Assembly (NCBI GenBank): GCA_001600815.1
Contig: BCKZ01000021.1
Coordinates: 1-64,000, forward strand
Direction: 5' to 3'
Source of the DNA: Alloascoidea hylecoeti
Taxonomy: Eukaryota
DNA length: 64,000 bases
Shown: piece by piece, positions 1-23,973 of the stretch
Layout: each line of letters opens with the position of its first letter
How positions within the stretch are numbered: the stretch's first letter is position 1
Position numbers and translations under genes: made by a program
Notes under the pieces: generated by a model
The model's database searches: none
Seen by the model: only the letters and a program-made list of their open reading frames with translations
Told to the model about the DNA's origin: nothing

Positions 1-91
1 CTTATTTTATACTAACTATTTCAAACTTATTTTATTATTTTTATTATTTATTTTTTACTATATTTTGTATAAAATTCTAAAATAGCGAGAA

Positions 92-245
92 TGTTGAAAC
101 TATATTTAGAATTATATAATTATCTTATTTATATAGAATACATAGTAAAAAGAAATATAAAAAGAGAAGAAATCCTCCTCAGGATTTCTTTCTCTACCCT
201 TTATCTTATTCATATTCTTAACTATTAAAAGTTAAAAGTTTTATA
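92..245 (+). repeat. 3' LTR, family A (about 155 bp)
   Basis: Starts TGTTGAAAC after purine run GAGAA; similar copy at 1979-2144; contains TATAAAA and hairpin AAGAAATCCT-cctc-AGGATTTCTT. Confidence 0.8.
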
Positions 246-535
246 GTGAAGGCACGAAAAATGGTTTATTTATCAGAAATTTCTTACAAGAAATGAATCT
301 TAAAATGGAACCGTTGAAAGTAATTAATGATAACATGAGTGCCATATCATCAGCAGATCACTACACTTCAAAGAATAAGCATATAAACATAAAAGTATTC
401 TTTACACGTGAACTGGTAGATAAAAAGGAAATACAATTATTTTATGTACAATCAGAAAATAACTTGGCTGATACTTTAACCAAAAGTTTAGACAAAAATG
501 CCTTCTTTAAACTTACAAATCAAATTATTAACTAA
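246..535 (+). pseudogene. Copia RNase H 3' fragment, 5'-truncated at the LTR junction
   Basis: EGTKNGLFIRNFLQEM...KHINIKVFFTRELV...NLADTLTK; near-identical to 3478-3767. Confidence 0.9.
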
Positions 536-826
536 TTACTCTTTATCTATTAATTTTATTTTATTACTGTTTTTATCTTATCAAAATTATCTTACTGTTA
601 TTACTAATTTTATCTTATTACTATTTATCTTATTAAGAATGAAAAACTATTATCTTATTTTTATTACTACACAAAATTATCTTATTAAGAATTAAAAATT
701 ATTATCTTATTGTTATCTTTATTTTATTATTATTCAAAATTATCTTATTTTATCATTATCTTATTAACGCCCATTTTTCTTTAACTACATTTATATTATT
801 TAATCATTTTTGAATATTAAAAAGAA

Positions 827-994
827 TGTTAAAAAATAATATTCAACAATAAANTAAATATTAAATAAACTATATAGATATATAAGAAAAATGAATATAA
901 AAGAGACTAAATCCTCCTCAGGATTTAGATCTCTATCCTGTTTATCTTATTACCATCTCTTACTACTAAAAGTGAAAAATTTACAAAATTAATA
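827..994 (+). repeat. 3' LTR, family B (about 170 bp)
   Basis: TGTTAAAA...TTAATA after purine tract AAAAAGAA; near-identical copy at 4065-4236; hairpin CTAAATCCT-cctc-AGGATTTAG. Confidence 0.8.
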
Positions 995-1176
995 GCTGAT
1001 CACTACTGTAACCGATCGAAGCATATTGAAATTAAATGGTTCTTTACTAGGGAATTGGTTGAAAGAAAAGAAATTGAATTATTTTATATTCAAACGACCA
1101 AAACATTTCAGATCCTTTAACCAAAAATCTGAACAAAATACAATTCCAAAAACTTATGAATCCCCTTATTAATTAA
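995..1176 (+). pseudogene. Copia RNase H C-terminal fragment of a second family
   Basis: ADHYCNRSKHIEIKWFFTRELVERKEIELFYIQT, frameshift, then DPLTKNLNKIQFQKLMNPLIN*. Confidence 0.85.
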
Positions 1177-1379
1177 AAACTAAAATCATTTATCTTATTT
1201 CTTATATTTTACTCTTTATCTTATACTTATATTAAGCTTATTTTATCATTACTTATTTTTATCTTATACTTATGATATTTATATTTTGTTATTCTTCAAT
1301 CTATCTTATTAAAAGAATCTTATTTTAATTCAAACTTATACTGCTTATTTTATATTCTTATTAAAATTAAACAAAATTG

Positions 1380-1382
<3 letters not shown>

Positions 1383-1477
<95 letters not shown>

Positions 1478-1837
1478 NNNNNNNNNNNNNNNNNNNNNNN
1501 NNNNNNNNNNNNNNNNNNNNNNNNNNNNNNNNNNNNNNNNNNNNNNNNNNNNNNNNNNNNNNNNNNNNNNNNNNNNNNNNNNNNNNNNNNNNNNNNNNNN
1601 NNNNNNNNNNNNNNNNNNNNNNNNNNNNNNNNNNNNNNNNNNNNNNNNNNNNNNNNNNNNNNNNNNNNNNNNNNNNNNNNNNNNNNNNNNNNNNNNNNNN
1701 NNNNNNNNNNNNNNNNNNNNNNNNNNNNNNNNNNNNNNNNNNNNNNNNNNNNNNNNNNNNNNNNNNNNNNNNNNNNNNNNNNNNNNNNNNNNNNNNNNNN
1801 NNNNNNNNNNNNNNNNNNNNNNNNNNNNNNNNNNNNN

Positions 1838-1931
<94 letters not shown>
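1383..1931. repeat. (TTA)n microsatellite spanning an assembly gap (Ns at about 1478-1837)
   Basis: Perfect TTA repeats on both sides of the N run. Confidence 0.97.
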
Positions 1932-1933
<2 letters not shown>

Positions 1934-1978
1934 TTATTGATTACTTTACAATTTGCATATGCCTTAAAATACTGAGAA

Positions 1979-2144
1979 TGTTGAAACTATATTTAACAAC
2001 ATATGCAAATTAATAATATCTTAATTTATATAAGTTAGATAGTTAAAAAGTAATATAAAAAGAGAAGAAATCCACCTCAGGATTTCTTTCTCTATCCTTT
2101 ATCTAATTCATATTCTTAACTATTAAAAGTTAAAAGTTTTTTAA
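1979..2144 (+). repeat. 3' LTR, family A, second copy
   Basis: GAGAA-TGTTGAAACTATATTTA start and 3' part match 92-245. Confidence 0.8.
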
Positions 2145-3767
2145 GCCATGCAAATGGAATTACAATCACTAAGAGATCATGAAGTATATACTGAATCAAA
2201 AGAAAAGGTACCAGAAGAAGACATAATAAGATCAAAATGGGTATTTACATTAAAAAACATAAAAGGTCTACCTGTCTATAAAGCACGTCTGGTATGCAAG
2301 GGCTTTACTCAAATGAAGGGTATCAATTTTAATACCACATATTCACCAGTCTCTTCATATGACAGTTTTCGTACTCTTCTTGCCATTCACACTCAACATC
2401 CAGAACATGTAATGGTCCAAATAGATGTTAAAACAACTTTTCTACACTCTAAATTATCTGAAACTATCTTTGTTAAGCCACCCCCTGGTTCTCGTGCTAC
2501 CCCTGGCTCTCTTTGGAAATTACACAAAAGGGGTTTGAAACAATCTCCAGCCAATTTCTTCAACACATTCTCCAAAGTACTAAAACTTATTGGTCTCAAT
2601 CAATCTACCATTGAACCATGTACATTTTACAATACTCAGGTTAAGATGATCATCTATGTTGACGACGGTATGTTATTCGGTCCAAAAACCGAAATTGATC
2701 AAATTCTAAAAAGACTGAATATATATTTTGAACTGAGTGATTAAGATCTTGCTTAGTATAACTTTTTGATATTCATTCACTTTTTCTTTATCTAGTTTTT
2801 CAGATTTTTCTTCAAAAGGATCATAATCAGTTGGTAGAGGAGTCTTATGTTTAAAATTCAGTTGGATTTGATCATGTTCTTGTTTAACTTTTTCCAAATA
2901 GTCTTTCAAACTGAGTTTGATTGAACCTCCCTTCAATTTGAACAAGAACATGATCAAATCCAACTAAATTTTAAACATAAGACTCCTCTACCAATTGACT
3001 ATGATCCTTTTGAAGAAAAATCTGAAAAATTAAATGAAGAAAAATTGAATGAATATCAAAAAATTATGGATATTATGAATTATACAGTATCAACTGTTAG
3101 AATGGACATTGCTTATGCTAGCTCAATGCTATCTAGAAAACTTAAGAGTCCTACTAAGCAAGATCTTAAAATGAGTTATAGAGTTCTAAATTACTTAATC
3201 AATACAAAAGAATTTGGAATTACATACAAGAATAATCAAGAACTTAATCTACCAATAACACAAGAATTATTCATGAGAGAAAAGAAGCCTCAAAATTTAT
3301 CATTACCTGAAAATAATGAAATTAAAGTTGTGACTGATGCAAGCTGGGCTGATAATAAATCATATCACTCAAATTATGGTTATATGACCTTTATCAACAA
3401 TAATATGATAAGTTTTAAAGCTAAGAAAATAAGGAATATTACTCTCTCTACCAGTGAATCTGAGCTTGTTGGAATCTGTGAAGGTACAAAAAATGGTTTA
3501 TTTATCAGAAATTTCTTACAAGAAATGAATCTTAAAATGGAACCGTTGAAAGTAATTAATGATAACATGAGTGCCATATCATCAGCAGATCACTACACAT
3601 CAAAGAATAAGCATATAAACTTAAAAGTTTTTTTTACATGTGAGTTGGTAGATAAAAAGGAAATACAATTATTTTATGTACAATCAGAAAATAATTTGGC
3701 AGATCCTTTAACCAAGAATCTAGACAAGAATGCTTTTTTTAAACTTACAAATCAAATTATTAATTAA
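2145..3767 (+). pseudogene. Copia RT-RNase H remnant interrupted by an inverted segment (about 2744-2935)
   Basis: SKWVFTLK, YKARLVCKGFTQ, IYVDDG, then RMDIAYA, TDASWAD, LSTSESE, KHINLK. Confidence 0.92.
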
Positions 3768-4064
3768 TGATTCTTTATTTTAAAATCTACTGATCTTATC
3801 TTATCACTTTCCTTATCTTATTAGAATTATTTTATTACAAGAATTTTAAATTATTATCTTATTGCTATTACTCTTATATTTATAAATATTCAAAATTATC
3901 TTATTAAGAATTAAAAATTATTATCTTATTGTTATTACTCTTTTATATTTATTTTATTAATATTCAAAATTATCTTATTATATCATTATTTTATTAATGC
4001 CCATTTTTCTTTAACTACATCTATATTATTTAATTATTTTTTGAATGTCACATATTAAAAAGAA

Positions 4065-4236
4065 TGTTAAAAAATAATATTCAACAACAAAATAAATATT
4101 ATTAAATAAACTATATAGATATATAAGAAAAATGAATATAAAAAGGACTAAATCCTCCTCAGGATTTAGATCTCTATCCTGTTTATCTTATTACCATCTC
4201 TTACTACTAAAAAGTGAAAAATTTACAAAATTAATA
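4065..4236 (+). repeat. 3' LTR, family B, second copy
   Basis: Near-identical to 827-994. Confidence 0.8.
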
Positions 4237-5217
4237 CGGACAGCACTTTGTTGATATTTATGCACCCGTTTGTTCATATGAAACTTTAAGGTTTATTTTG
4301 AATTTCACCGTACAGAATGATTGGCAACTTTGTCAGTTTGATGTTTCAAATACTTTTTTGCATGGTGATATCGATTATGAAGTTTTCATGGAACCTCCTG
4401 ACGTATCTCATATTAACAAAGACAAATTATGGAAAGTCAAGAAAGCTGTTTATGGTCTGCGTCAAAGTCCTAATCTCTGGTTTGAAACTCTTGCTTCTAC
4501 TCTTAAGGAAATGGGGTTTACACAAAGTGATCTAGAACCCTGTCTATTTAGCAAAGTCGATAGTCTTATTCCAGTTTATGTGGATGACTCTTTCATTGCT
4601 GCTCCCAATAGTCAAATATTGAATGATATCAAATCAAGAATCAAGCAGAAGTTTCCTATTAAAGACCTTGGTTTCCCTAGCACCTTTTTAGGTATGTCAA
4701 TACCAGAACCTCTTCCGGTGGAATCAAACTATCTCTTAAGGATTTTCTTACTAAACTTGAAAGTGATTACCAAATTGTTAAAGGTAAACAGTTGCTTACT
4801 CCTTTAGTTAAAGGTTTCAATCCATATGAGTCCTCAAAACCTTTGGAAACTAAAGACATCAAAAAATATCAATCAACTGTTGGAGTTATCAATTTCATTT
4901 CAAATACCGCTAGACCTGATGTTTCTTTTGCTGCTTCACTTTCATCACGGCTTCTTGTTACTCCCAACGTTATTCATCTTAAGGTTGCTTATAGAGTACT
5001 CCAATATCTTGTTCAAAGTAAGGAAAAGGGAATCTGTTATGAAAAGAACTCACCATCTTTACCCTATAAAGACTTTAGATACTTAGACACAACCAAGAAC
5101 GTTTCTATTGTTGACTATCCTAGACTTGGCAAATACACTATCACTGCTGTTTCTGATTCTGATCATGCTGCTGACGTCAATGACCGTCTCAAACTGGTCT
5201 ATATTTTAAGAATTTAA
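4237..5217 (+). pseudogene. Copia RT remnant of a third family, frameshifted
   Basis: YAPVCSYET, QFDVSNTFLHG, YGLRQSP, VYVDDS, frameshift near 4695, then TARPDVSFA and SDSDHAAD. Confidence 0.9.
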
Positions 5218-5301
5218 TGGAAGAACTCAAGTTAGATGTGTCTTATATTGATTTAGTAAGTGATAACAGATCTGCGTTAATCCTGGTCGCACATAAGTAT
5301 A

Positions 5302-5560
5302 ATCATTCAATATTTGATTATTGGGAGCAGCAATGAAAGAGTCATCCACATAAACTGGAATAAGACTATCGACTTTGCTAAATAGACAGGGTTCTAGATC
5401 ACTTTGTGTAAACCCCATTTCCTTAAGAGTAGAAGCAAGATTTTCAAACCAGAGATTAGGACTTTGACGCAGACCATAAACAGCTTTCTTGACTTTCCAT
5501 AATCTGTCTTTGTTAATATGAGATCCGTCAGGAGGTTCCATGAAAACTTCATAATCGATA
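5302..5560 (-). repeat. Inverted duplicate of RT segment 4369-4627
   Basis: Minus-strand translation differs from the plus copy at only four residues. Confidence 0.93.
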
Positions 5561-5569
5561 GATCGTACA

Positions 5570-5840
5570 AGCAATCATGGATACATAACTTTTCTAGAAA
5601 ATAACATAATAAGCTGGAAAAGTCAAAAAATATCTTCAATAAATCTTAGTAGCTAATATATCAGCTAATAAAATAAATGTTATAAATGACAATCAATCTG
5701 CTTTAATTATGAGTGCTCATAGTACAGGTAGAAATAAGCACATTGAATTAAAGTTCTTTTTCACACGACAACTTATAAATAAAGCTTCACTATATCCAAA
5801 CACAACTACTTATATTATGAACAAAATTATGAATTAAAAT
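5570..5840 (+). pseudogene. Degenerate copia RNase H fragment
   Basis: SNHGYITFLENNIISWKSQK and GRNKHIELKFFFTRQLI separated by deletions; followed by a TATCTTA-rich UTR and an LTR-like relic at about 6150-6240. Confidence 0.75.
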
Positions 5841-6244
5841 TATTATTTATTTTTAAGAAATGTTATCTTAATTGGTTTTCTTATCTTATCAATCCTTTGT
5901 TTTATTTTATTTCATACTTATTTTTATCTTATAAAATCATTGTTATTTATTTAAAAATCTCTTAAAACTTATCTCAATATATTTTTGTTCTTTAAATGTT
6001 AATTTTACTCATCTTCTTATTTTAGTTATATTTATCTTAAAATACTTATTTTTCTTATATTATATCTTATCTCAAAATGCTTATCTCAAATATCTCAAAG
6101 TTTATGTTATTTATTCCATAACACTTATTTTATATTTATTAAAAAAAAAATTGTCAGATTTAGTTCTCTACCCTTTTTATCTTTTTCTTAATACAATTTT
6201 TATATTACTATATTTACAACTAATTACAACTTACAAATTTTCTC

Positions 6245-7340
6245 AATCTGTCACAGTTTGATGTCTCCACTGCCTTTCTGAATTCAGATATACATCACAC
6301 GGTTTCTGTTAGACCACCGGGTGTTCCTGTTTCTTCCGGAAAAGTCTGGCTATGTAATCGTACCATTTATGGACTTCGTCAAACGCCAAAAGAATGGTAT
6401 GAGACATTAAAATCTGCACTTGCCAAGTTTAATCTTATTTCAACAATTGTAGATCCGTGTTTCCTTTATAAACCCGGTACAAATATCAGGGTTCTTATCT
6501 ATGTAGACGATGGATTAATCTGTGCTAATTATTTGGATACTATTAAGATTCAGAACTGTCTATCAGAAGTATTCAAGGTTGAATATATAGGTTTTCCAAA
6601 AATGTTCTTAAGTATGGATTTTAGGGATAATACTTCAAATTCATTAAAAATATCTTTAGAATAGCACACCAAAAAGATACAAGAAGAAAAGAAGTTATAG
6701 GACATGAAGGTATATAAAAATCCATTACCTGATAATTATAATCCCAGAACAGAATCAAAACTATTAACAATAGACAAAATTAAGATTTACCAACAATTGA
6801 TTGGTATTCTAAACTATATGGTTAACACTGTTAGAGTAGATCTTTGTTTATACTTGCTCAAAAACTTGCTACTCCTACTGAATCTAATTTAAGAATGGCT
6901 TATAAACTTTTGAGGTATGCAACCTGGGCTGATGACACAGAAAATAGGAAATCACAATATGGATTTCTAATGTTGTTGAACAGAAATTTAATATCATTTA
7001 AATCAAAGAAATTGGATAACATAACTTTAAGCACTTGTGAATCTGAATTTGTGCATTATCAGATGCTCTTAAACATACATTAGGTATAAAGAATCTATTT
7101 ATGGAACTGGAAATGATAAATATAAAAATCAATGGAATTAATGACAATATTTCTGATCCACAAATTGGTTTAAGAAAAATCAAACACATTGATTTAAGAT
7201 ACTTATTTATATTAGAAAAAATAATATTAGGTATAATGACCTTATTTTATATCAACACAAATAATAACTTAAGTGACTTTTTAACTAAGCCATTAGGTCA
7301 TATCAGATTTCAAGAATTAACTTCCAACCTAATATATTAA
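6245..7340 (+). pseudogene. Heavily degenerate copia RT-RNase H (outermost element)
   Basis: QFDVSTAFL, IYGLRQTPKEW, LIYVDDG, TVRVDL, WADD, STCESE, KHIDLRY, NLSDFLTK in several frames. Confidence 0.88.
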
Positions 7341-7783
7341 ATGAATTATTATATTTAACTATGAGATTTAAAAATACTTTTATTTTATTCTACTTTGTTG
7401 TGGTTCCAATTCATTTTAAGCTACTCATTTTTTAAAGAATTATAACAAAATTTTCTAAATAAACTTTTCATTATATTAAAGGCATTTAAAACGAATTCAA
7501 ATTATTTTATTTATAAAAATTTATATCTACTTTTAAGCATTTCATATTATTTATTGTTATCTGCTATTATTTTATTTTACATACTGTTTTTATCTTTTAC
7601 ACTTTATGTTATTATCAAATCTTCAAATTAAAATCTTTCTTTTATTTTTATTAAAACCTTATTTTCATTAAACATATACTTTCAATGATTATTTTGAAGA
7701 AACAAATATTTATATTTAAAAACATATTTTATTTTATTAATTGTTAATTTCATTCATGTTTTATTATCAGAATTATAAGAGGA

Positions 7784-7946
7784 TGTTGAAATATTGTACC
7801 AAACAATGTTTCATAATTCACTAATAATACATAATAAGAGATACCAATTTTATATAGTTAGATAGCTAAATTTCAGTCTAAAAGAAGAGTCGAATCCTGA
7901 TTTGAATTTGTCACTTTACCCTTTTTATTTTTACTTTACTTCCACA
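7784..7946 (+). repeat. 3' LTR, family C, closing the cluster
   Basis: Polypurine tract AAGAGGA followed by TGTTGAAA...TCCACA; 3' part (TACCCTTTTTAT) resembles family A; right end approximate. Confidence 0.6.
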
Positions 7947-8499
7947 GTACTATTGTTAAGATTTGAAAAAGTATATGCGCCAAGCCTTTAAATCAAAAAA
8001 TATTTATATTATATGGAACTCTGAGTCTCTGAATTTTATGGTATAGACTAAAGAAGGCCATGCCTCAGTGTATATATGGGTAGAGTAGTTGGGTGTCCTA
8101 GTGGGTGTTATAAAACCGCCAATATTTTGTTGGGTAAGAAAAACTGCTAAATCCAAGTTTTACCCGACTGTTGTAGTGTACCACATAGTCGAGTGAAATT
8201 ACTATACCTGTACAATCTCCTGAGTCGCAACAATGTTAAAATGTAGAATATTTACTATCGTTTATAAAGATTGAGCTTAATAACAGATCTTACAATTGAA
8301 AGAGCGAATGAAAAAAAACACTTCAACGATATTTAAAACGAATAAACTAATCAATACGTACAAAAATAACTATTAAACTTCTCTTTAAAAAATTTAATAA
8401 AAAATATAACAATAATTGTTCGCATTCTTCTTTGTTTATGAGATCCAAGTAACATCGGCTATACTGTTTTTATACCAGTAATAACTCACTATAGATTAC

Positions 8500-9854
8500 T
8501 TAAGCTCCTTGATATAATGCATAAGATAAGTTAAGTGGCCTATTACCATACTCATATCCAGCAAATTTACCAATAGCAAGTTCCGCAGTAGATTGAGTAT
8601 CGAATTTAACGACACCAGAACCAGCAGACCTCCCATTTGACTCATATTTAATTTGAGCTCTTTCAACTTTACCAACTATTTCAAAAAGATCAATTAAATC
8701 CTGATTTGTAGTTGACCAGGGTAGATTACCAACAAAAATAGTATCACTAGGCTCCCCATTACCTTTAATGCCATCAGTGAATGGATCTGCGGGTACTCTT
8801 TGAGATGAAGGATGAGAAGGAGCGTGGGTATTAGAAGTAAAATTGTGAGAATCTGCAAATCTATCCTCTCTAACTTCAATTGCTCTACCATTTAACTCAT
8901 AACCATTAAATAAAGAAATAGCATTTTGAGCATCAGCTGGGGATTCAAAAATTACAATTCCATTTCCCTTTGAACGACCATCGGGTAAAGTTTTAACATC
9001 AGCACGAGCAATACTTCCTGCTTCACGAAATAAATCTTTTAATTCTTTCCAACCAACACTATATGGAAGATTTCCAACAAACAATTGAGTACCTTTTTCT
9101 TTAGGCTTCTCGGATCTAAATCCGGTATTGGATCTGGTGTTGGAAGATGCAGCATGTCTTGGGACACGATCCTTAAAATTTAAAATACTGTAAGAAATTA
9201 TATAACGGCGATCAAAAAATCAAACAAACAGACTTACTTCACGAATAAAGATTTGACGACCTAACAATTCAGTATTTGAAAGGGTTTCAATGGCATTTTT
9301 TGCTTCTTCAGCTGTAGCATATTCAACAATTCTGTATGATAATTAGATCATTACTCAGATTCCAACTCATATAACTAACACAATGAAATTCGATTTCAGA
9401 TCACTTACCCACAGCCCTAAATAAAAGCATTTTTAATATATATTCGTAACGAAACAAGCAAGACTGTATAAAACACATACCTTTGATCTCCCGTTGAAAG
9501 TTTTCAACACATCAGCAAAAACAACTTCCCCAGCTTGGGCAATATATACATTAGTATTTATGATATTAGAGTAGTTAGGATAAAGCATACCTTGTCTCAT
9601 ATAATCTTTGAGATCCGTCCATCTAACCTCATAAGACAAATTTCCAACATAAACTCTCTTGTCTTGTTCACCTTCAGCACTCTTTTCGACGACCCCGGAA
9701 GGAGACTTAATTCACGGTTAGACATCAGAAGACTCGTTTAAGAGAAACCAACAAAAATTGAACCATACCTCTCCATTAAATTCAGCTACAATAATCAAAA
9801 CGTTAGGATCAATTCAGCAAAGGTAACAAGCAAGAGAACAATTAGCTTACACAT
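8500..9854 (-). CDS. GBP2: Three-RRM poly(A)+ RNA / G-strand binding protein Gbp2/Hrb1, 7 exons
   Basis: Spliced model MSEFNGESPSG...[26 protein letters not shown]...SKGCGIVEY...[18 protein letters not shown]...FVGNLPWST; six GT-AG introns keep the frame. Confidence 0.88.
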
Positions 9855-10277
9855 CGTAAAAACACCTCACACTTCTACCCGTAATAATATTAATGAATTT
9901 ATATTCAATTGAACGTCAAACCGGCGAAGTCATTTTATCCCATCCAGCACGTGCTATAATCGTGGAATAGGGAACTAGAAGGTTTGATCCCTCCAAATTC
10001 CAAACCAGATAATAAGTACTGACGTTTGACCAAGGCCATGGGCGTGCAGCTATGAGTAGATCACCAGGCCAATGGACCAACGGACGATAGGACATGGGCT
10101 GCCGAGACAAGAGTGAACATACCCTTTTCTAATCACAGTTGAACCAACAAAACAGCAACAGGGGACTTTTGGAAGTGTGATGATAAATCGACAATGCAAC
10201 CCCAAATAGCATCTTCTACGCTTATGGCATAAGTGAGGTGGACGTCATACATCACATCACATAATATTATTTATTAC

Positions 10278-11292
10278 CTAATTAGGAGCAGGCAAAACAT
10301 GTCTCCGTTCAACTTCTGTCTCTTTCCCTTCTTCTTCCTCTCCTTCAAATCGTAGGCGACATCGCCCATCTCTCTGTATATATAATTAGTATGTTTACAA
10401 ATCAAACACTACGAATAACAGTAACATACTTTTGTGCCCATCACCTCCGCAGGGTAGAATGTAGTCGTTTCTGGGTATCTGGCCAATACTCGCGAACCGA
10501 ACGAGTAACTAGGAAGGTTAGCAGAGCGACTTGGAATTAGAATAACATCTGCAGCAGTAGCTTTGTAAGACTGTCCAGGATTGTTGTTTTCATCTGGTTC
10601 TGGATCCTGCACTTCAAACCTGCAATCGACAAAAGATTAGAGATAGCACACCATTCAAAATATATTCACCCATAACATACTTCGTACCATCACCATATAT
10701 TCTGGTCACTTCGCACTGAATCCATTCATCGCTTGCGCCTCGTTGACCTTTTAGTTTGAAAGCAACCTCTGACCCCACAAGAATGGGGTCTGAAGGATTG
10801 TATGGGCTACTGTTGAAACTACAACAATTCATAATTGGTTAGTATCATGAGCCTTAAAATTTAAATTCATTACACACCTTCTGCCTCTTTTGGCCGTTTT
10901 AGGTTCCGTATCAATCGCCTTGCGTTTCCGATTCTTTGTGTATTCTGATAATGTCTGGTGGTTATTTGCTTTGCCTTGTCCAGTTTGTCGGTTTGTTAGC
11001 GCAGAAACGCTATCCAAAGCTGATATGAGAAGTCTTGATTTTATTGTTAATACGTTTTTGTTTTTCTGGTCAAATAAACAAAGTAAATAGCATACTTTCT
11101 AGATTCACGAGCCAGTTTCAATTGTCTTATTAGACGTGCCTTTTCTTCTTCGATTGATTTTCTAGAGTCCATTCTCTCGTCGATATGCATCGTATAGTTG
11201 GACGCTATCTCGATGCAGCACAGACTATGAAGGGTTCCAATGACGTGATTCCAAAGATCTGCTTCTGTTTCTGATTCTACGGATTTTGACAT
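10278..11292 (-). CDS. SGF29: SAGA subunit Sgf29 (tandem Tudor), multi-exon
   Basis: GSEVAFK...EWIQCEV, VQDPEPDE, VLARYPETTTFYPAEV, RFEGEEEEGKETEVERRHVL. Confidence 0.92.
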
Positions 11293-11438
11293 TGCGTGTA
11301 GAAGGCCTGTATATTATTATTCTTTATTAGAAGGTATGTATAAACCCTTATTGTTACAAAGAAAGGTCCCCTGTATGTACGGGTGTATGGTATGTTCTAT
11401 TGAAAAATGATTGGATATTCTATATTTCATACATCAAC

Positions 11439-13070
11439 ATGTTATTCTCCTCTTTGGCAAATGGGCTTTCACGGTCTATCTTAGGAACCCCAGTCTCTTC
11501 GCATCATTATTCGATTATTCATCCTAGAGTTCAAACTGTGATGAAACAGCTGGATCGAATTGCCCCTAGATTCTCTCTAAATGAAGGAAAAATAAGAATT
11601 ATTCAAGAACCTGCAGACTTTTATGATAACCTAACAACAAGAATTAGTCAAGCTGAAACCCGTATCTTCTTATCATCCCTATATATTGGAAAAGGTCAGG
11701 ATAACCTGGTAAGCTAGTTCTATTAAGAATTTTTAAGAGAGTTGTATACTAAATAAAGATTTGTAGGTCAATTGTCTTCGAGATGCGCTTAACAAAAAGC
11801 CAAATCTGAAACTTTTCATTTTGACTGATGCTTTACGAGGTACACGAGAAGCCCCGGGAAAATGTTCTGCTTCAGTATTAGCTTCTTTGACCAAAGAATT
11901 TGGAAACAGAGTTGATATTAGGATGTACCATACTCCTAATTTATCAGGCATTGAAAAGGTCATTCTTCCGAAAAGAATAAATGAAGGTTGGGGTTTACAA
12001 CATATGAAACTTTATGGATTTGATAACCGTATCATTCTTTCAGGTGCAAATTTATCAGCGGATTATTTCACCAATAGACAAGATAGGTATTATGAATTTG
12101 ATTCTGAAGAAATTACAAATTATTATTTCAACATACATAGAGCTATTTCTTCTCTTAGTTATAAATTACAGCCATCATCAATGAAACAGAAATTTAGATT
12201 AACCTGGCCTCATACAAATAACGCCTCTGAACCCCATCTCAATCAAGAACGGTTTCTATCCGATTCTTTTAGTACCCTGGAGCCCTTGATTAAACCTCCA
12301 ACATTGACCGAAGAGATTAAAAGTGTTGATGAAGACGACACTACTGCAACATTTGTATACCCCATTTCTCAATTCACCCCCTTACTTAAGCCTGATATTT
12401 CGACTGAGAAGCCAGCAATTCTCCGCATTCTGTCATTGCTTGACTCTAAAGATACGAGATGGTACTTCACTGCTGGATACTTCAATATTTATCCTCAATA
12501 CAAAGAGAAGTTACTTAAATCACAATCATCCGGACATGTGATAGCGGCTGCTCCTGAAGTATGTTATGTAATTTTACTATCTCTTCATATCTTTATATTA
12601 AATTCTAATACTTTTTTCTTTAGGCAAACGGCTTCTATAAATCGCATGGAATCTCGAAATATCTCCCACCAGCATATACGTATTTAGCAAAGGCATTCTT
12701 ACTTGATATACAAAAATACAAACGAACTGAAAACATAGGATTGTACGAATGGCAAAAGGGGATAGTAAATACACTAGGTGGTTGGTCATATCATGCCAAA
12801 GGAATTTGGATATGTAATCCAAATGAAAATAAGCCATGCTTAACAGTAATAGGATCTTCAAACTATACAAGAAGAGCATATTCTTTAGATTTGGAAACGA
12901 ATGCAGTGATCGTTACAAGAGACGAACAATTGAAGAATGCGATGAGATCAGAGGTTGATAATATTTTGAAAAATACCAAACAGATGGCAGTTGAAGATTA
13001 TGAAAAAGAGGATAGAAAGGTTTCATTGGGGGTTCAATTAGCTACTAAGATTGTGGGTGAAAAACTCTAG
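11439..13070 (+). CDS. PGS1: Phosphatidylglycerophosphate synthase (PLD family), 2 introns
   Basis: RIFLSSLYIG, DALRGTRE, GWGLQHMKLYGFD, SGANLSADYFTNRQDRY, WSYHAKGIW, IGSSNYTRRAYSLDLE. Confidence 0.95.
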
Positions 13071-13280
13071 TTATAAATTGTAAATATAAGTGTTTTTCTA
13101 CTACTGTGTTTTTGTTTGAGAGCATGAAGCGGTTATAATTAGTAATAAATATCAAGAGATTTCATAATAATTTTGCTACTTTTAATCGTAACCCGGATTG
13201 AAACAAAGTTTTAAGCCAATTAACAATTAACAATACATTAATGGGAATATATATATTAACGGATTGTATAATAAATTTAA

Positions 13281-14229: not shown

Positions 14230-14415
14230 TGAGTTCGTCTAACTATTCCCCCCACAGATTTCCATGGTTTGTAACACGACCCTAATCGTCCAGCATCTTT
14301 ATATTTATCGAGGCCGTAAAGCTCTTTTGTCGAAGAAATACAAATACGACACCATTCACCCAGACACCTGATAATCACAACCCTAGCATCTGTTGTCTCG
14401 ACGTCCCGTTAAACA

Positions 14416-15003
14416 ATGGACACCGTTTCAAATATAACCATGGATCTATCGGCTACACCTCTCAATGGCATAACAATATATGTCAGACAAGCAACGACTC
14501 TTTATCGGTATTATCTAGATAAGGCTACTCCTTATACCTTCTCTAGATGGGGTGGATTTGCCGTTCTTATCACCATCTTTTTTCTGCGCATTATAGTTTC
14601 TCAAAGATGGTTCATTGTTTGTTACACTCTGGCAATTTACTTGCTTAATATGTTTCTCGCATTCCTGCAGCCTAGATTTGACCCATCACTAGAACAAGAC
14701 TTACTTGATCAAAATATTGAAGAGGGTTCTTCTTTGCCAACAGAAAACGATGAGGAATTCAGACCCTTCATACGCAGACTGCCCGAGTTCAAGTTTTGGT
14801 TCAACGCTACTCGCGCCACTTTAATTGCTTTGCTATGTTCTTTTTTCTCAGTATTGGACATTCCCGCTTTTTGGCCAATTCTTTTGGTGTATTTCATTAT
14901 TTTGTTCTCCCTCACAATGAGAAAACAAATTCAGCACATGATAAAATATCGTTATATTCCATTCAATTTGGGTAAAGCGAAATATGGAAAAAGACTTAAT
15001 TAA
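14416..15003 (+). CDS. RER1: ER retrieval receptor Rer1
   Basis: YLLNMFLAFLQPRFDPSLEQD, EEFRPFIRRLPEFKFW, QIQHMIKYRYIPF. Confidence 0.97.
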   Translation: MDTVSNITMDLSATPLNGITIYVRQATTLYRYYLDKATPYTFSRWGGFAVLITIFFLRIIVSQRWFIVCYTLAIYLLNMFLAFLQPRFDPSLEQDLLDQNIEEGSSLPTENDEEFRPFIRRLPEFKFWFNATRATLIALLCSFFSVLDIPAFWPILLVYFIILFSLTMRKQIQHMIKYRYIPFNLGKAKYGKRLN

Positions 15004-15442: not shown

Positions 15443-15981
15443 TTAATTGAAAAACACAGCTTTGGGATCCAAAGGTCTTCCATCCGGGCCTAGTATATGT
15501 AAGTTAATTTCTAATATAGCTCTTTTATCTACTTTCGGAAATTATACTCACCGATTCCATTTTCTTTCATCTTATTCTTAGTGTAAAAAAGACGAGCATC
15601 GTCAAATGACATTCCTTTGTTTCCAGCCATTATTTTCAAAATATCTGACTTCGCATTTTCATCCAATCCCTTGCGAGTATCATTTTCATCCAGATTATTC
15701 AATACAATGTTGAAATTATCAGAGGTTAGACCATCTTCTATATCATGAGCAAAGCTAGGAACGGGAATAAAGGAGTGTCGTTCTAGATTATATGGCGTTA
15801 GATATATGATATAAATGTAGTTAAATTCTTCTTACTTACTTTTCCCATAATTTATCGCAAATGCAATCAAAGATAAGACCAAGGCAATACCGAAATAAAA
15901 GTAGATGTTGGAGTTATTCCTATCAACATTTTCATCACCGGGAAATTCAACCGGGATTTCTACAGAGTGAATGTCATTCAT
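15443..15981 (-). CDS. UPF0357/DUF2015 small membrane protein, YCL012C homologue, 2 introns (absent from ORF track)
   Basis: SFAHDIEDGLTSDNFNIV...GLDENAKSDILKIM...FDDARLFY...GIGPDGRPLDPKAVFFN*. Confidence 0.85.
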
Positions 15982-16423: not shown

Positions 16424-19400
16424 CTAAACATATTCTGCTTTATTTTCAGAATCCCCAAACGATAGGGTATTAGTTATAGTATTGATTAGATAGCCATATG
16501 AATCGAGATCGGATTCATAGTCCGAATTTTCTTTTTGTTTGGGCGTTGTTTCTGTGTCTGTGAGATCCTGCTCTGGTTCTTTTTCTAAGACCTCTTCGTC
16601 TGTAGAGTCATCGTACTCAAGAATCTTGCCATATTTCCTTCTGGTACCTTTAGTACCTTGAAATTTGAAAGGTTTTGCTACTTCATCAAGCCTGCTTGGT
16701 GAATACCACTCAAGTAGATTTTTAGAGTCATTATTATTAGAATATTTATCTGGGCTATCTGCTGGTAGAATGCTGGACGAATAGTCTGTAACCCAATCGG
16801 AACTTGCATTTGACGAGCTTTTAACCATACCATAGGTTTCATCATATTCATTATCCGCATCAGTGTATAATGAAGTTCTTTCATAATTATTATTCATAAC
16901 AATTGAATCCATATTATTCGTATTATAACGATTGTTAGACACGGTGGGGAAGGAGGCTTCGTCTAATTGCAACCTCAGTTGAATTCTTGGCGATTCAACA
17001 TCTGCATAATCAACCGATAAAGAAGACAATGAACTAGATATAGAAGCTGAACCACCTTGAATATAGGTGTCATTACCATTTTCAGTTCTAACTACTGTTC
17101 GTTCAACATCGTCATCATCATAAGCTGATACATTTGGTGTTTCGAATACACCGCTCTCTATATCTCGTTCCATTTGGAGTCTGGATTCAAAATCGCTGTC
17201 GCTATCACTAGAGCTTAATATTTCAACATTGCTGCGTACCTCATCATCGTCATAACATATTGCTTTCTGTTGCTCATCCTCTGGTTCCTGCTCAAAATAT
17301 GGCATATCATCACATGATAATCTTGCAGTTAATGGAATATCTGTATCGCCATACGGCCTTGCATTTCTATGGACATCAACTGATAATCGGGTCTCACTTT
17401 TGATCGACATTGTTCTGTCATATGTGTTCGATGGAATAAGCGCATTCGGGTTAAAACCTGTACCCAATGAAGATCTTCTGTATGGCATTGAAGAAGGTTC
17501 AGGTGCCGAAACAAAGCGCCTACCAGTGTTTGGGGCAATTAACATTGAAGCGGTCCTGCTTTCCATTCCGTCGTTGTTCAATCTGCTAACCGAAAACGAG
17601 TCACGAGGGCTAGGATCCCTTGTACCACATATCTCATTTCTTTTTGAAAAATTCAAATCAGGCGTAGTAGCTTCGGTCACAAAGCTTTGTGTAGAAGAAG
17701 CACTGGCGTCACTAAAATGAGAAGACCCGCTCACGGGTATGGTATCAGGCGCAACTAAAGTGTCATCATTATTTTCTGAGGTTAATTTGACACTTGAATT
17801 CTTAGAAGAGAGCTCAGAAGGAGCACTAGTAACCCTTGTTTTCTTCTTCGGTTTCAACCTTAAGGAACTTGAAGAAGAAGCTATCAATTTTCTTTTGTGA
17901 TCTTCGTCCTCCATGTGCTTCTTAGTAAGTGAGAGAGAACGACTAAGAAATGATTTCACTCTGTACAACAAAGGTACAGAAGATTTTCGGTTTTCTCTAG
18001 GTGCAAAAGATTGTGTATGTCGTATAGGAGGTGGCATTGACACCGATGCTTCAATCGGTGAAAGTGAAGATTGAATACTTGATCTCTCCCCCGGAGTAGG
18101 AGACAAGATAGATGAAACTCCCGAGAACCTTATGCTAAGATCCATTGATTCAGATGGATACCTTACAGACATAGTCCTCAAGTTGATCTTTTTTCTGGAT
18201 TCTTGCATTAATTTAGTTTGAAACTGGTGGTCTAACTTCTCAATATAGGTAAGCATTTCTGTTACTAATAGTTGATTTCCTTTTATAATATCACCCACAA
18301 TCTTTGAATTTTCTGGAGATAAAAATAATCCATAAGCCTTTGAAATTTCCTTTACCAAAATCGAAGCAAATTCACTTTTCAAAGCAATTTCACGGAAAAT
18401 AGTGCCTGCTTTTGTTAAGCCTAAAATCTTTACCTTCTCTTCCTCCTCATCTTTATTATTGATTTTATTTGAGACAGTTGAGCGCTTATCAGTAGTAAAT
18501 GAAACTGAATAGCAAGCGAACAATTCATTTTCATCTAAGAAACTCATATCAATATCTACATTAAGGAGTAATGCAAAAGGGCATTTTCTTTCTTCCTTCA
18601 AGTATACATCATACTCATGAGCCGTAGAATATAATTTCACTTCTTCTTCCTCTTCTTCTTTACCATAAGAGTCCTCATCATCTAGTTGCCCAGTCATTTG
18701 AAATAAATGCAAGGGTTCAGTTTTACTTAAAACTTTTGCTTTTGTGATTAACTCTACAAATTTTCTGGTATCATTATATTTATTGACATTTCTAAATTTG
18801 TACAAACGTAGATGCTCTTTACATCCTCCATCTGATTGAATTCCTTGATCTTTAACGAATAATTGTAAGCATGTGCCATTGTTGTACGAAGCCGCAAAAA
18901 CGTCCTTAATTGAGGCCCAAGCATCTACTTGCAAAGACGGTAAATTTTTCAACGGTTTTTCAGACGTTAACGAATGCATTAAAATGTCAGCGATAGATGG
19001 CTTATGAATCGTTGGCGTATAATTATCATCGACTTTTAGGATTAATATGTGATCACTGAATAAAATGAGAACGTCAAGCGTTGGAGAGACTTTTGATGAT
19101 ACTGGCGAGGAGTTGGTAGCAGATAAAAGGGAATATTTCAAGTTAACAGCATCCACTATTGTTACTACACGTCTAGAAACCCACCCATATTGTAATTCTT
19201 CGGGCCAACCAGTTGCCAATTCAGTCAATATTTTTCCCGTGGGTGTGACTACGCGCCTGTGATATGGTTTCAGGGATGCCTGTGCAAAATCGTCTATCGT
19301 ACCCACCGCCGATTTATAATAAGAATTCACTAACTCAATTTCATCTTCTAGCCATTCTTTCTGTTTCATTAGTCTATCGATTACCAACTTTAGCCTTGCT

Positions 19401-20521
19401 AAATTTAATGAGCTATGTATTATTGTTTCAATGTGGGCTGGGCTATAATAAGATACTGTGTTTGAGTCATCTGTTAAGTAAGGCAATAGCATATCGTATA
19501 TTTCATTCAATTTAATGGTGAAATTTTTTGTGGCAGCTTCATGTCTCATATATGCTTTGTAAAAATAAGGAATTGTAGAGCCACATGCTTTTATTACCTC
19601 GAATGCATCACGCTTATTTGCAGATTGTAAGGATTCCAAGAAGATGCAATTAATCCTAGTGACTTCATCAATTGTTGGAGGGAAAACAGAGTTTAGTCTT
19701 GAAAGAGAAATGAACGGTATTTCATTATTCATAGCACGAGCTCTTAATGGGACGACAAAGTCCTGTAAAAAAGCCACTAAACTATGCGTGAAGTTAGTTT
19801 GAATATCTAGCAGTTCATTGCATATGGGCTTAACAACTTCGGTGTCCTCTTCATATCCATTCAAAGAAGATGAATCTGATGAGGTCGATGGAGGGTGGTA
19901 TATTTTTTCAGTTGGTTCTGGAGAGTATTCAGTTAGAGGGTCGAAAAGTTGTTCTAATTGTTGACCCATAAGATACACAAGGGCGTTATTCTGTTTAATC
20001 ACAGCAGGGTCGTTCTTATAGATAACATCCAACAGCAATGAGTTTGCAAACTTCTCTGAGAAGAAGCCAAATTGAGAGCAGATATTGCATACAACCTTTG
20101 AAATATTGGGAACCTGAGATTTTCTGAGAGTAGCGGCGAATTCTCCGGCCCAAGTTTCATCAAATGTAGGAGGGTGACCAGTACTAGTTCGTGTTATGGA
20201 CTGCTCGAGAAGGGAAGATCTAAGGGAAGAGTTCATGGTTGCATAGCATCTCAGGATGGCGATGGCAAGGGCCCGCCGTTCACAGTCCATCTCCATGTCC
20301 GGAGGAAGGTTTCGGACAGCAGGGAAATACCTAGATCTCTCCGTTAAGGTCATGTTGCGAAAATGGGATGCCCCATGGTAGGACACCAGGCACACGCTGG
20401 CTGTGGAGGCCTGGGAATCTGTGTCATATAGCAGCACACATAGGTTTCCAAGAACGGGGTCGGAGCCGGAGTATACAGCACCGTTCTGCTCTAGAGATTC
20501 AGGCACAGTTGGAGAACTCAT
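16424..20521 (-). CDS. BUD3: Bud site selection protein Bud3 (DH/PH Cdc42 GEF with long disordered tail)
   Basis: GQQLEQLFDPLTEYSPEPTEKIY, FPPTIDEVTRINCIF, TPTGKILTELATGWPEELQYGW; divergently transcribed from NFS1. Confidence 0.93.
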   Translation of the reverse strand: MSSPTVPESLEQNGAVYSGSDPVLGNLCVLLYDTDSQASTASVCLVSYHGASHFRNMTLTERSRYFPAVRNLPPDMEMDCERRALAIAILRCYATMNSSLRSSLLEQSITRTSTGHPPTFDETWAGEFAATLRKSQVPNISKVVCNICSQFGFFSEKFANSLLLDVIYKNDPAVIKQNNALVYLMGQQLEQLFDPLTEYSPEPTEKIYHPPSTSSDSSSLNGYEEDTEVVKPICNELLDIQTNFTHSLVAFLQDFVVPLRARAMNNEIPFISLSRLNSVFPPTIDEVTRINCIFLESLQSANKRDAFEVIKACGSTIPYFYKAYMRHEAATKNFTIKLNEIYDMLLPYLTDDSNTVSYYSPAHIETIIHSSLNLARLKLVIDRLMKQKEWLEDEIELVNSYYKSAVGTIDDFAQASLKPYHRRVVTPTGKILTELATGWPEELQYGWVSRRVVTIVDAVNLKYSLLSATNSSPVSSKVSPTLDVLILFSDHILILKVDDNYTPTIHKPSIADILMHSLTSEKPLKNLPSLQVDAWASIKDVFAASYNNGTCLQLFVKDQGIQSDGGCKEHLRLYKFRNVNKYNDTRKFVELITKAKVLSKTEPLHLFQMTGQLDDEDSYGKEEEEEEVKLYSTAHEYDVYLKEERKCPFALLLNVDIDMSFLDENELFACYSVSFTTDKRSTVSNKINNKDEEEEKVKILGLTKAGTIFREIALKSEFASILVKEISKAYGLFLSPENSKIVGDIIKGNQLLVTEMLTYIEKLDHQFQTKLMQESRKKINLRTMSVRYPSESMDLSIRFSGVSSILSPTPGERSSIQSSLSPIEASVSMPPPIRHTQSFAPRENRKSSVPLLYRVKSFLSRSLSLTKKHMEDEDHKRKLIASSSSSLRLKPKKKTRVTSAPSELSSKNSSVKLTSENNDDTLVAPDTIPVSGSSHFSDASASSTQSFVTEATTPDLNFSKRNEICGTRDPSPRDSFSVSRLNNDGMESRTASMLIAPNTGRRFVSAPEPSSMPYRRSSLGTGFNPNALIPSNTYDRTMSIKSETRLSVDVHRNARPYGDTDIPLTARLSCDDMPYFEQEPEDEQQKAICYDDDEVRSNVEILSSSDSDSDFESRLQMERDIESGVFETPNVSAYDDDDVERTVVRTENGNDTYIQGGSASISSSLSSLSVDYADVESPRIQLRLQLDEASFPTVSNNRYNTNNMDSIVMNNNYERTSLYTDADNEYDETYGMVKSSSNASSDWVTDYSSSILPADSPDKYSNNNDSKNLLEWYSPSRLDEVAKPFKFQGTKGTRRKYGKILEYDDSTDEEVLEKEPEQDLTDTETTPKQKENSDYESDLDSYGYLINTITNTLSFGDSENKAEYV

Positions 20522-20721
20522 CACCAACTTTTGGAGGTTTAAAATTGTAGATATTACAACACCAAACGTTTGGAATGTAAACACTCTTCTGCGTACTATA
20601 CAGTCCGGGACACATTATACACACACCCATTCTCCGGCTCAGAAACCATTTAGTAAATCATATTCTACTGAAAGTAGCATTCTTTTACATTTTCCAACCA
20701 ATACTTTTTTCTGTGAAAAGA

Positions 20722-22353: not shown

Positions 22354-22814
22354 ATGATATATAATCAAACTATATATTTTATAATTGTTTTATGTCTTCT
22401 TTATTGTAATTATATACTGTTCATATAATATTTTATTAGCATCATTATCCTCTGCGCTCACAATGTCATGTACGTATATAAAGCTGTTTTCTGTAATTGT
22501 GTTCTAGGATATAAATGTGGCAAACAAATCTGCAATATATAACTTATAATTAAGACCAATGTTAAAAGGTAATTTCTGGAAAAATGGGTTGGTGCCTCTA
22601 TCAAATAAGGTGTCGTATAAGATGTATTCCCCATTCATTAGTACTCTCAGGTTTTATTAGAAATCTACCAAATCCTTTCTTAAAAGAAAATAATTGATAC
22701 TGAATCACTATCCAATCTTTATTGAAACACCATCATCCATGCTATTATAATCTAACTAATATTGTTCATTGCTATAGTTAAATAATTATATTCTATACAT
22801 TTATCTATTGGCCA

Positions 22815-23921: not shown

Positions 23922-23973
23922 GATATTTCAGTTGTGAAGGAAAATCGATGGTTTGCAGGTGGATCATAAGCAA

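What the first reader, a model, noticed from the sequence alone, without database searches (positions are those of the whole stretch)
92..7946. Russian-doll architecture: only 3' halves, same orientation, most decayed outermost
Seen: LTRs ending at 245, 994, 2144 and 4236 are each followed, with no primer-binding site, by a 5'-truncated RT or RNase H that starts mid-domain at a different codon each time. Each unit then has a UTR and the next LTR. No gag, protease or integrase is visible. The unit nearest the genes (6245-7946) is among the most decayed. Inference: this is the right half of a serial nest in which several copia families inserted into pre-existing elements in one polarity. That implies a narrow, persistent and oriented integration target lying left of base 1.
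Basis: partly seen in the sequence, partly recalled or inferred. Interest (0 to 1): 0.7.

Follow-up and report, generated by a model that had tools for sequence, protein, structure and literature searches.

The report
Nested retrotransposon stack, possible yeast centromere
Several copia-type jumping genes have landed one inside another at the broken end of a yeast scaffold, next to genes whose baker's-yeast counterparts flank a centromere, so this is probably the edge of a large transposon cluster that may mark a centromere, while the shared orientation of the pieces looks like chance.

Summary
The stack is real. Five LTR ends each run, with no primer site, into a 5'-truncated RT/RNase H of another Ty1/copia family, and decay increases outward. 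Corrections: two internal inversions break the single polarity, unit 4237-6243 is a two-family chimera, LTR ends are 2143 and 6243, and 7947 is not a TSD (that LTR is truncated at 7954).

Base 1 is the scaffold start. The mirror halves are not in the assembly, but read depth suggests about 40 unassembled copies of the main family. Nearly all LTR copies sit at about 22 scaffold ends. Other edges show 5' halves and mixed orientation (28 parallel : 18 antiparallel, p=0.18), so an oriented target is unsupported.

The flank carries the GBP2-RER1-BUD3-LEU2 block (CEN3-linked in S. cerevisiae, recalled); four other edges carry centromere-adjacent genes. A blind 14-gene test was weak, and a duplicate of the block has no cluster.

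Best reading: the edge of a nested, Ty5-like cluster (TG..TA ends, tRNA-Ser half primer), centromeric at about even odds, in a yeast apparently outside the lineages where such centromeres are reported. The scan had already noted the Ser primer on other DNA of this genome.

The parts
1..245 (+). 3' UTR and polypurine tract (1-91) plus 3' LTR of family A1 (92-245, TG..TA); innermost visible element, at the scaffold start
   Evidence: 99% identical to a PBS-bearing 5' LTR at C27 end
246..994 (+). Family-B RNase H end (P0241 aa 1405-1500), UTR, 3' LTR B (827-994); starts at candidate TSD GTGAA
   Evidence: 100% over 95 aa, no stop; 93% to 3478-3777
995..2143 (+). Family-A RNase H tail (frameshifted), UTR with (TTA)n and assembly gap 1478-1837, 3' LTR A2 (1979-2143); candidate TSD GCTGA
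   Evidence: 96% to L008, which is ungapped
2144..4236 (+). Family-B RT-RNase H (P0241 aa 994-1500) with internal inverted segment 2757-2957, UTR, 3' LTR B (4065-4236); candidate TSD AGCCA
   Evidence: (RVT_2 E 3e-34); inversion joints bridged by contigs of runs X1, X2, X4
4237..5301 (+). Family-C RT-RNase H with a frameshift and a deletion, no own LTR; candidate TSD CGGAC
   Evidence: RVT_2 E 4e-43; 93% nt to L019 and L021
5302..5560 (-). Inverted duplicate of family-C RT 4369-4627 (98%)
5561..6243 (+). Family-D RNase H fragment, UTR and 3' part of an LTR (about 6131-6243)
   Evidence: 76-79% nt to nearest long copies
6244..7954 (+). Family-E RT-RNase H (2 stops, frameshifts, deletion), UTR, LTR 7784-7954 lacking its last ~65 nt; outermost unit
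   Evidence: (RVT_2 E 1e-20); joint at 6243 bridged in 3 runs, joint to unique DNA in 2 runs
8500..9711 (-). GBP2/HRB1-like RRM gene, first host gene beside the stack
   Evidence: Hrb1 and Gbp2 among PDB hits, not the top hit; name partly recalled
10409..11313 (-). SGF29 (intron-containing; limits approximate)
   Evidence: SGF29_Tudor
11331..13067 (+). PGS1-like phospholipase-D-family gene (limits approximate)
   Evidence: weak PLDc hits; name recalled
14413..15000 (+). RER1 (the gene next to CEN3 in S. cerevisiae, recalled)
15532..15831 (-). DUF2015 gene (YCL012C-like, name recalled)
16424..23927 (.). BUD3 (-), NFS1 (+), LEU2 (-): rest of the YCL001W-YCL018W-like block

Best explanation
WHAT IT IS: the assembled outer edge of a large cluster of one yeast Ty1/copia lineage with at least seven LTR families.

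HOW IT FORMED: elements integrate by ordinary integrase action with a 5-bp TSD (shown for two solo LTRs). They are steered again and again into a few gene-free regions rather than to a sequence or a strand (clustering shown, tethering inferred). Each new copy usually lands inside an older one and pushes the older 3' remnant outward, so reading outward gives [3' LTR][truncated pol-UTR-3' LTR] repeatedly, young high-copy families inside and old low-copy ones outside (pattern shown, order of events inferred). The matching 5' halves lie in the unassembled core left of base 1 (inferred from depth). Fold-back inversions and deletions then scarred the outer units.

THE ELEMENTS: they prime on the anticodon arm of tRNA-Ser(AGA/IGA) (complementarity shown, priming inferred) and mostly end TG..TA.

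THE TARGET: most likely the centromere region, as for Ty5-like clusters of other yeasts. I put this step at about 0.5; the nested-cluster part at about 0.85.
For: JUNCTIONS: LTR 3' ends are fixed by 17 PBS-adjacent sites and by solo LTRs with TSD GAATG (L043) and GATTC (L013). The four inner window junctions fall on these ends.

CLUSTERING: 23 of 23 LTR-B matches and 42 of 43 LTR-A matches lie within 12 kb of a scaffold end. Contig depth relative to single-copy DNA is 39-46x for family-B pol and 58-66x for LTR B, against about 1x for the outer unit. The tool warns that depth is not a strict copy number. Only nine near-full LTR-B matches at 89% or more are assembled.

OTHER EDGES: C6 start and C34 start repeat the 3'-half pattern; C27, C14 and C11 ends show 5' halves with PBS. 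E is outermost at C21, C16, C14 and C7.

NOT AN ASSEMBLY ARTEFACT (outer part): joints at 6243, about 2750, 2890-2935 and 7954 are bridged by contigs of other runs, one a metagenome.

CENTROMERE STEP: the window flank holds GBP2, SGF29, PGS1, RER1, DUF2015, BUD3, NFS1, LEU2. One inversion of GBP2..RER1 would give the S. cerevisiae order read outward from CEN3 (order recalled). C34 start has an H2A-H2B pair 2.7 kb from the last LTR plus DNM1, and PMC13017519 names the H2A-H2B cluster as conserved beside Ty5-cluster centromeres. C5 start has SWC4-CUL3, C13 end VPS1, C4 start RCR/TRP1.
Against: - No mirror half with a matching TSD was found (0 of 24 LTR 5' flanks).
- Joints at 245 and 994 were outside the stretch laid; those at 2143, 4236 and 5560 were not among the listed bridging pieces (471 pieces not shown).
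- A duplicate of the same gene block on C10 (BUD3, RER1, GBP2, plus DCC1, PET8-like, MRP7) has GBP2 directly beside PAN2, with no cluster within about 85 kb.
- The SPB4-DEG1-SNF8-HAT1 block (CEN6/16-adjacent, recalled) lies at C21:317-325 kb with no cluster.
- Blind test with 11 Pfam families (14 gene copies): 1 of 14 within 30 kb of a cluster (expected 0.37, p=0.31); 5 of 14 within 135 kb (p=0.02, threshold chosen afterwards); 1 more is 2.6 kb from a scaffold end with no LTR seen.
- Only 5 of the 21 edges whose flanks I scanned carry a gene I recognise as centromere-adjacent.
- C3 and C10 carry lineage elements at more than one place.
- Earlier unchecked notes propose inverted-repeat centromeres elsewhere in this genome.
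Confidence: 0.7

Rival explanations
1. The same nested cluster, but at non-centromeric safe havens (subtelomeres, or gene-poor silent islands that grow because insertions into dead elements are harmless). The true centromeres are the inverted repeats noted elsewhere in this genome.
For: The duplicate gene block on C10 lacks a cluster. The blind test is not significant at 30 kb. 16 of 21 edges show no recognised centromere-adjacent gene. C6 start and C14 end carry tandem mannosyltransferase and MFS genes. About 22 edges fits two telomeres per chromosome as well as two sides per centromere. S. cerevisiae Ty5 targets telomeric silent chromatin (PMC13017519).
Against: Most edges are flanked by conserved housekeeping genes, not subtelomeric families. 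The window flank and four other edges match centromere-adjacent genes, including H2A-H2B. The inverted-repeat candidates are unchecked notes.
Confidence: 0.35
2. One reading: a narrow target that also fixes the strand, so several families always insert in one polarity.
For: 5 of 5 LTR junctions in the window are parallel. C6 start and C27 end are also all-parallel. The pooled split is 33:18, p=0.049.
Against: Outside the window the split is 28:18, p=0.18. Antiparallel insertions are common, including a solo LTR with TSD (L013). Insertion points are scattered over gag, IN, RT, RNase H, UTR and LTR.
Confidence: 0.1
3. Tandem cDNA capture or LTR-LTR recombination built or trimmed the array, so the 5' halves never existed here or were deleted.
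For: No mirror halves are found. 3'-end junctions are mostly parallel (20:6) and 5'-end junctions mostly antiparallel (8:14), Fisher p=0.008, meaning retained hosts are mostly 3' halves; recombinational trimming could contribute. Fold-back structures are frequent.
Against: LTR-mediated tandems should have a PBS and a full internal region after each LTR (recalled for Ty5 cDNA recombination); there is none. Each LTR joins a different family at an arbitrary codon, with no shared sequence at the joint.
Confidence: 0.08
4. Misassembly of short-read repeat fragments at a scaffold end.
For: The stack is at a scaffold start, contains a 360-N gap, and includes very high-depth repeats.
Against: Four joints are bridged in contigs of other runs, including a metagenome. 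Junctions respect exact LTR termini. The two B copies differ by 7-14%, so they are not one collapsed copy.
Confidence: 0.04

Closest known systems
Ty5-cluster centromeres of Pichiomycetes and Saccharomycetes yeasts (PMC13017519, passages and Supplementary Data 3 and 7 read; PMC12711049, abstract, introduction, section 11 and passages read)
   Same: Clusters of mostly dead copia elements and LTRs in gene-free regions; several LTR families sharing one half-tRNA primer site; inverted repeats made from element parts; neighbours such as H2A-H2B. The hidden size inferred here, tens of kb per site, is in the range listed for Saccharomycopsis (35-103 kb).
   Different: The primer is tRNA-Ser, not tRNA-iMet. 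LTRs mostly end in TA, not CAACA. On one gene tree the host falls outside the two classes; the preprint (10.1101/2025.04.25.647736, passages read) reports no such linkage in its Dipodascales outgroup. Centromere function is untested here.
Ty5, Tca5 and Ty5-like elements (Ty1/copia, Pseudoviridae)
   Same: Single gag-pol ORF in copia order (P0241); 5' TGTTG/TGTTA; 5-bp TSD; PBS directly after the LTR, complementary to a tRNA anticodon stem-loop in the same register as Ty5 (register recalled). The RT groups with an element of Pichia inconspicua apart from plant and animal copia.
   Different: Different primer tRNA and 3' terminus. No named Ty5 sequence was available for the tree.
Nested LTR-retrotransposon stacks of plant genomes (PMC6911290, listing and two passages read)
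   Same: Elements inserted in elements, in both orientations.
   Different: Here the stack is in a compact, gene-dense yeast genome and confined to about 22 scaffold ends.

Membership tests
Ty1/copia LTR retrotransposon | RVT_2-type RT; order gag-PR-IN-RT-RH | tested here: met
   RVT_2 in three units; P0241 and L021 give the order
Ty1/copia LTR retrotransposon | LTRs, PPT, PBS, 5-bp TSD | tested here: met
   TSDs shown on solo LTRs L013 and L043, not on the window's own units
Ty5 family | [quoted passage not shown] | tested here: not met
   17 of 17 sites found with the GAWTTCCAAYCTTT-type pattern match the tRNA-Ser(AGA) arm; 7 genomic matches to that arm, 2 of 2 scanned are tRNA-Ser(AGA). I did not search for an iMet-type PBS.
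Ty5 family | Priming on an internal (half) tRNA, PBS abutting the LTR | tested here: met
   Complementarity ends two bases into the 3' side of the anticodon stem and starts directly at the LTR end; priming itself is inferred
Ty5 family | Termini TGTTG...CAACA | tested here: not met
   5' TGTTG/TGTTA; 3' end TA in 13 of 17, NA 1, CA 1, AA 1, CT 1
Ty5 family | Phylogenetic affinity to Ty5 | tested here: inconclusive
   Own and yeast-like RTs, including Pichia inconspicua, are split from 19 plant, animal and other copia (SH-aLRT 99); no named Ty5 row; two long branches
Ty5-cluster centromere | Elements confined to few gene-free clusters | tested here: met
   65 of 66 LTR matches within 12 kb of scaffold ends; high hidden depth
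Ty5-cluster centromere | One cluster per chromosome | not testable with these tools
   136 scaffolds; C3 and C10 carry lineage elements at more than one place
Ty5-cluster centromere | Linkage to ancestral centromere-adjacent genes | tested here: inconclusive
   5 of 21 edges positive; blind test 1 of 14 at 30 kb; duplicate block without cluster
Ty5-cluster centromere | Cse4 binding or Hi-C centromere peak | not testable with these tools
   no such data

The most novel reading that the evidence does not exclude
The stack marks a centromere at the ancestral CEN3/14 position in a yeast outside Pichiomycetes and Saccharomycetes, occupied by a Ty5-related lineage that switched to a tRNA-Ser half primer and TG..TA ends. 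Retrotransposon-cluster centromeres and their positions would then be older than the 247-311 Myr limit given in PMC13017519, or would have arisen twice at the same places.
Probability: 0.3. Interest if true: 0.7.

Novelty: new variant of a known kind. Interest (0 to 1): 0.45.

Why it matters
Nesting and a run of parallel 3' halves are ordinary geometry at the edge of a transposon cluster. What could matter is where the cluster sits and in which organism. The current model dates Ty5-cluster centromeres to the ancestor of two yeast classes and rests on one Dipodascales outgroup without linkage. A deeper-branching yeast with clusters beside CEN3-block genes and H2A-H2B would test that date directly, with about 22 named scaffold ends as Hi-C or Cse4 targets. 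The Ser half-tRNA primer and the TA ends also show that the usual Ty5 diagnostics would miss such elements.

Tried and rejected
- Upstream window: none exists; base 1 is the start of scaffold C21.
- TSD partners: none among 24 valid LTR 5' flanks. One GTGAA at L002 belongs to the wrong LTR family and host.
- C27 end as the mirror partner: family order and flanking 5-mers do not match.
- A degenerate LTR-start pattern was badly built and gave chance hits; ignored.
- A metagenome scan for relatives, meant to read their primer sites, returned only generic copia at 26-41% identity; loci L058-L137 were not used.
- The protein atlas gave generic RVT_2 clusters only.
- CUG-codon test of the host: no CTG in SRV2, so uninformative.
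- The C12-end eRF1-family gene is SUP45-like, not DOM34; the C17 bZIP is HAC1-like, not YAP1 (by recall). Both were dropped as centromere markers.
- LTR-pair dating is impossible without the 5' LTRs.
- Run X5 holds only a small share of the stretch and was not used as evidence.
- Orientation tally: 70 junction sides examined, 5 in the window. Of the other 65, 48 were classified (45 by BLAST, 3 from the map) and 17 left out (no element in the flank, own PPT, or PBS remnant). Two solo LTRs were counted once. Some junctions may be later inversion breakpoints rather than insertions.


Full report
OBSERVATION. The window is G000:C21:1-64000, so base 1 is a scaffold start in a 24.8-Mb, 136-scaffold genome. 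Positions 1-7954 are AT-rich and made of Ty1/copia pieces: RVT_2 is hit at 2145, 4235 and 6224. Mapped on a natural full-length polyprotein of the same family (P0241, 1500 aa), all hits lie at residue 994 or later; no gag, protease or integrase and no primer site occur. From inside out the units are: LTR A1 (92-245); family-B RNase H, UTR, LTR B (246-994); family-A RNase H tail, UTR, gap, LTR A2 (995-2143); family-B RT-RNase H, UTR, LTR B (2144-4236); family-C RT-RNase H (4237-5301) with an inverted duplicate (5302-5560); family-D RNase H, UTR, part LTR (5561-6243); family-E RT-RNase H, UTR, truncated LTR (6244-7954). Lesions rise outward.

ARE THE JOINTS REAL? Contigs of other runs bridge 6243 (X1, X2, X4), the inversion joints near 2750 and 2890-2935, and the step into unique DNA at 7954 (X1, X4). 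X1 or X2 may be the source of the assembly; X4 is a metagenome of another study. LTR ends were fixed independently: 17 LTRs elsewhere are followed directly by one shared primer site, and two solo LTRs have perfect 5-bp duplications, GAATG and GATTC. The four inner window junctions fall exactly on those ends and join a different family at an arbitrary codon. This is what integrase-made nested insertions leave. LTR-mediated tandems should keep a primer site and a whole internal region (recalled).

THE ELEMENT LINEAGE. The shared site GATTTCCAATCTTT is complementary to the anticodon arm of the genome's tRNA-Ser(AGA), with C opposite the wobble A, as expected if it is read as inosine (inference). 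I found this before seeing that the scan had noted it elsewhere in this genome (e1-7784332). The register matches Ty5 half-tRNA priming (recalled), but Ty5 uses tRNA-iMet, which PMC12711049 calls diagnostic. LTRs start TGTTG or TGTTA and end in TA in 13 of 17 cases, not CAACA (PMC13017519). In an RT tree the genome's families fall with unnamed relatives and one Pichia inconspicua element, apart from 19 plant, animal and other copia (SH-aLRT 99; no named Ty5 row). So the elements work like Ty5 but fail two membership features.

CLUSTERING. 23 of 23 LTR-B matches and 42 of 43 LTR-A matches lie within 12 kb of a scaffold end; the exception is a solo LTR 17 kb from an end. Contig depth over family-B pol is 39-46 times single-copy and over LTR B 58-66 times, while the outer E unit is about 1x (the tool cautions that depth is no strict copy number). 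Only nine near-full LTR-B matches at 89% or more are assembled. I infer that most copies sit in unassembled cores behind about 22 scaffold ends (my count, including some family-C-only and partial-LTR ends). That explains why the mirror halves are missing: none of 24 LTR 5' flanks carries the expected TSD and host. Other edges show 3'-half stacks (C6, C34), 5'-half stacks with primer sites (C27, C14, C11) and mixtures (C3, C5, C13, C19, C23, C32). The young A1/B/F families lie at the breaks, and E, D, C outside.

ORIENTATION. Outside the window 48 of 65 junction sides could be classified: 28 parallel and 18 antiparallel after merging two solo LTRs (p=0.18); with the window 33:18 (p=0.049). Five parallel in a row has probability 0.03-0.08 per edge and 0.22-0.50 over about eight comparable edges. 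3'-end junctions are mostly parallel and 5'-end junctions mostly antiparallel (20:6 versus 8:14, p=0.008), which means retained hosts are mostly 3' halves. I have no tested explanation; detection bias or recombinational trimming are possible. An oriented target is therefore not supported, though a mild bias is not excluded.

WHAT IS THE TARGET? The genes next to the stack are GBP2, SGF29, PGS1, RER1, a DUF2015 gene, BUD3, NFS1 and LEU2. In S. cerevisiae these are YCL001W-YCL018W, the left flank of CEN3, and one inversion of GBP2..RER1 would give that order from the centromere outward (names and order recalled). Among the 20 other edges whose flanking ORFs I scanned (173 ORFs, a few from internal sites), four carry genes I recall as centromere-adjacent: H2A-H2B and DNM1 (C34), SWC4-CUL3 (C5), VPS1 (C13), RCR and TRP1 (C4, partial LTR only). 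PMC13017519 names H2A-H2B as conserved beside Ty5-cluster centromeres.

Against this: a duplicate of the block on C10 has GBP2 directly beside PAN2 with no cluster; the SPB4-DEG1-SNF8-HAT1 block lies mid-scaffold without one; and a blind test of 11 families (14 copies) gave 1 within 30 kb (p=0.31) and 5 within 135 kb (p=0.02, post hoc threshold), with MET14 2.6 kb from an end that shows no LTR. Earlier unchecked notes propose inverted-repeat centromeres elsewhere in this genome. I put the centromere reading at about even odds.

HOST. On a 31-row SRV2 tree the host lies outside the clade of Pichiales, Alaninales, Serinales and Saccharomycetales rows (99/96) and outside Lipomycetales (100/99), unresolved among early branches. 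The best named hits are only 50-53% identical. This is one gene, with no Ascoideales, Phaffomycetales or Dipodascaceae rows and with order labels assigned by me from memory; the 89 other hits were left out. I did not identify the species.

COMPARISON AND NOVELTY. Ty5-cluster centromeres are reported for Pichiomycetes and Saccharomycetes and dated to 247-311 Myr, from about 80 chromosome-level assemblies (PMC13017519: passages, Supplementary Data 3 and 7, term search of 8 supplements). The preprint cites lack of linkage in Blastobotrys aristatus for that limit (passages). The Supplementary Information Figures with the synteny maps were too large to read, figures are not held, and bioRxiv supplements are closed; these may already cover the CEN3 block in outgroups. 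Searches for 'centromere, Ty5, Dipodascales' and for a guessed early-branching genus with 'centromere' returned no paper describing such clusters in this kind of yeast, but the library lacks most subscription papers. PMC12711049 (abstract, introduction, section 11, passages) notes that Ty5-like elements may be centromere-associated rather than centromere-making, and that most orders are unstudied. Nesting in both orientations is known from plants (PMC6911290, two passages).

VERDICT. A real but geometrically ordinary edge of a nested retrotransposon cluster. The oriented-target claim is unsupported. The value lies in a possible centromeric position in a deep-branching yeast and in the variant primer and termini. 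New variant of a known kind; interest 0.45.

Noticed in passing
window 8500-20614 versus L176-L177 (G000:C10:694-709 kb): Collinear duplicate block (BUD3, DUF2015, RER1, GBP2 at about 45-70% aa identity) with reciprocal gene loss (SGF29, PGS1 here; DCC1, PET8-like, MRP7 there). NTH1, RPC34, SEC7 and SSO also occur twice. This looks like an ancient whole-genome duplication or hybridisation. PMC12424943 (passages) reports WGDs in Dipodascales; whether this host belongs there is unresolved.
   Followed up: partly
L157-L158 (C23 start) and L162 (C32 start): Both cluster-bearing ends carry a SEC7 copy within 30 kb, with SUP35/ARG82-like genes on one and STB3 on the other: either duplicated regions that both kept a cluster, or two sides of one.
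   Followed up: no
L145-L146 (C11 end) and L142 (C7 end) versus window 44-56 kb: THO2/RPC31 at C11 end and RFX1 at C7 end are neighbours in S. cerevisiae (recalled) of SRV2-NAM9-EAF7 and CBF5 in this window; either end could be the partner of C21 start.
   Followed up: no
window 165-210, 907-950, 2066-2105, 4147-4190, 7890-7930: The window's LTR families keep a short palindrome (AATCC..GGATT) followed by a TCTCTAYCCT-like motif and TTTATCTT despite otherwise low identity; a candidate transcription or 3'-end signal.
   Followed up: no
L002:664-3357 (C5 start); also L003, L012, L014, L018, L021: Fold-back inverted duplications made of element parts are frequent; L002 is a 2.7-kb palindrome with LTR B at both ends, and its junction appears in run X2.
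   Followed up: partly
window 1380-1940: A (TTA)n tract in the family-A 3' UTR, about 30 nt in the L008 copy, has expanded here to more than 200 nt and causes the gap.
   Followed up: partly
L182:1-2861 (C48 end): MET14 and ALG14 lie within 3 kb of a scaffold end with PAN1 beside them; no LTR in the assembled part. A candidate partner for the VPS1-bearing C13 end.
   Followed up: partly
L021:2560-7609 (C3:1.29 Mb): Nearly complete family-C element with both LTRs, inside a scaffold between two F-box genes, away from any A/B cluster.
   Followed up: partly
L043:1516-6342: Chitin synthase with myosin-motor and cytochrome-b5 domains, a gene type I recall from Yarrowia-grade yeasts and moulds; fits an early-branching host.
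   Followed up: no
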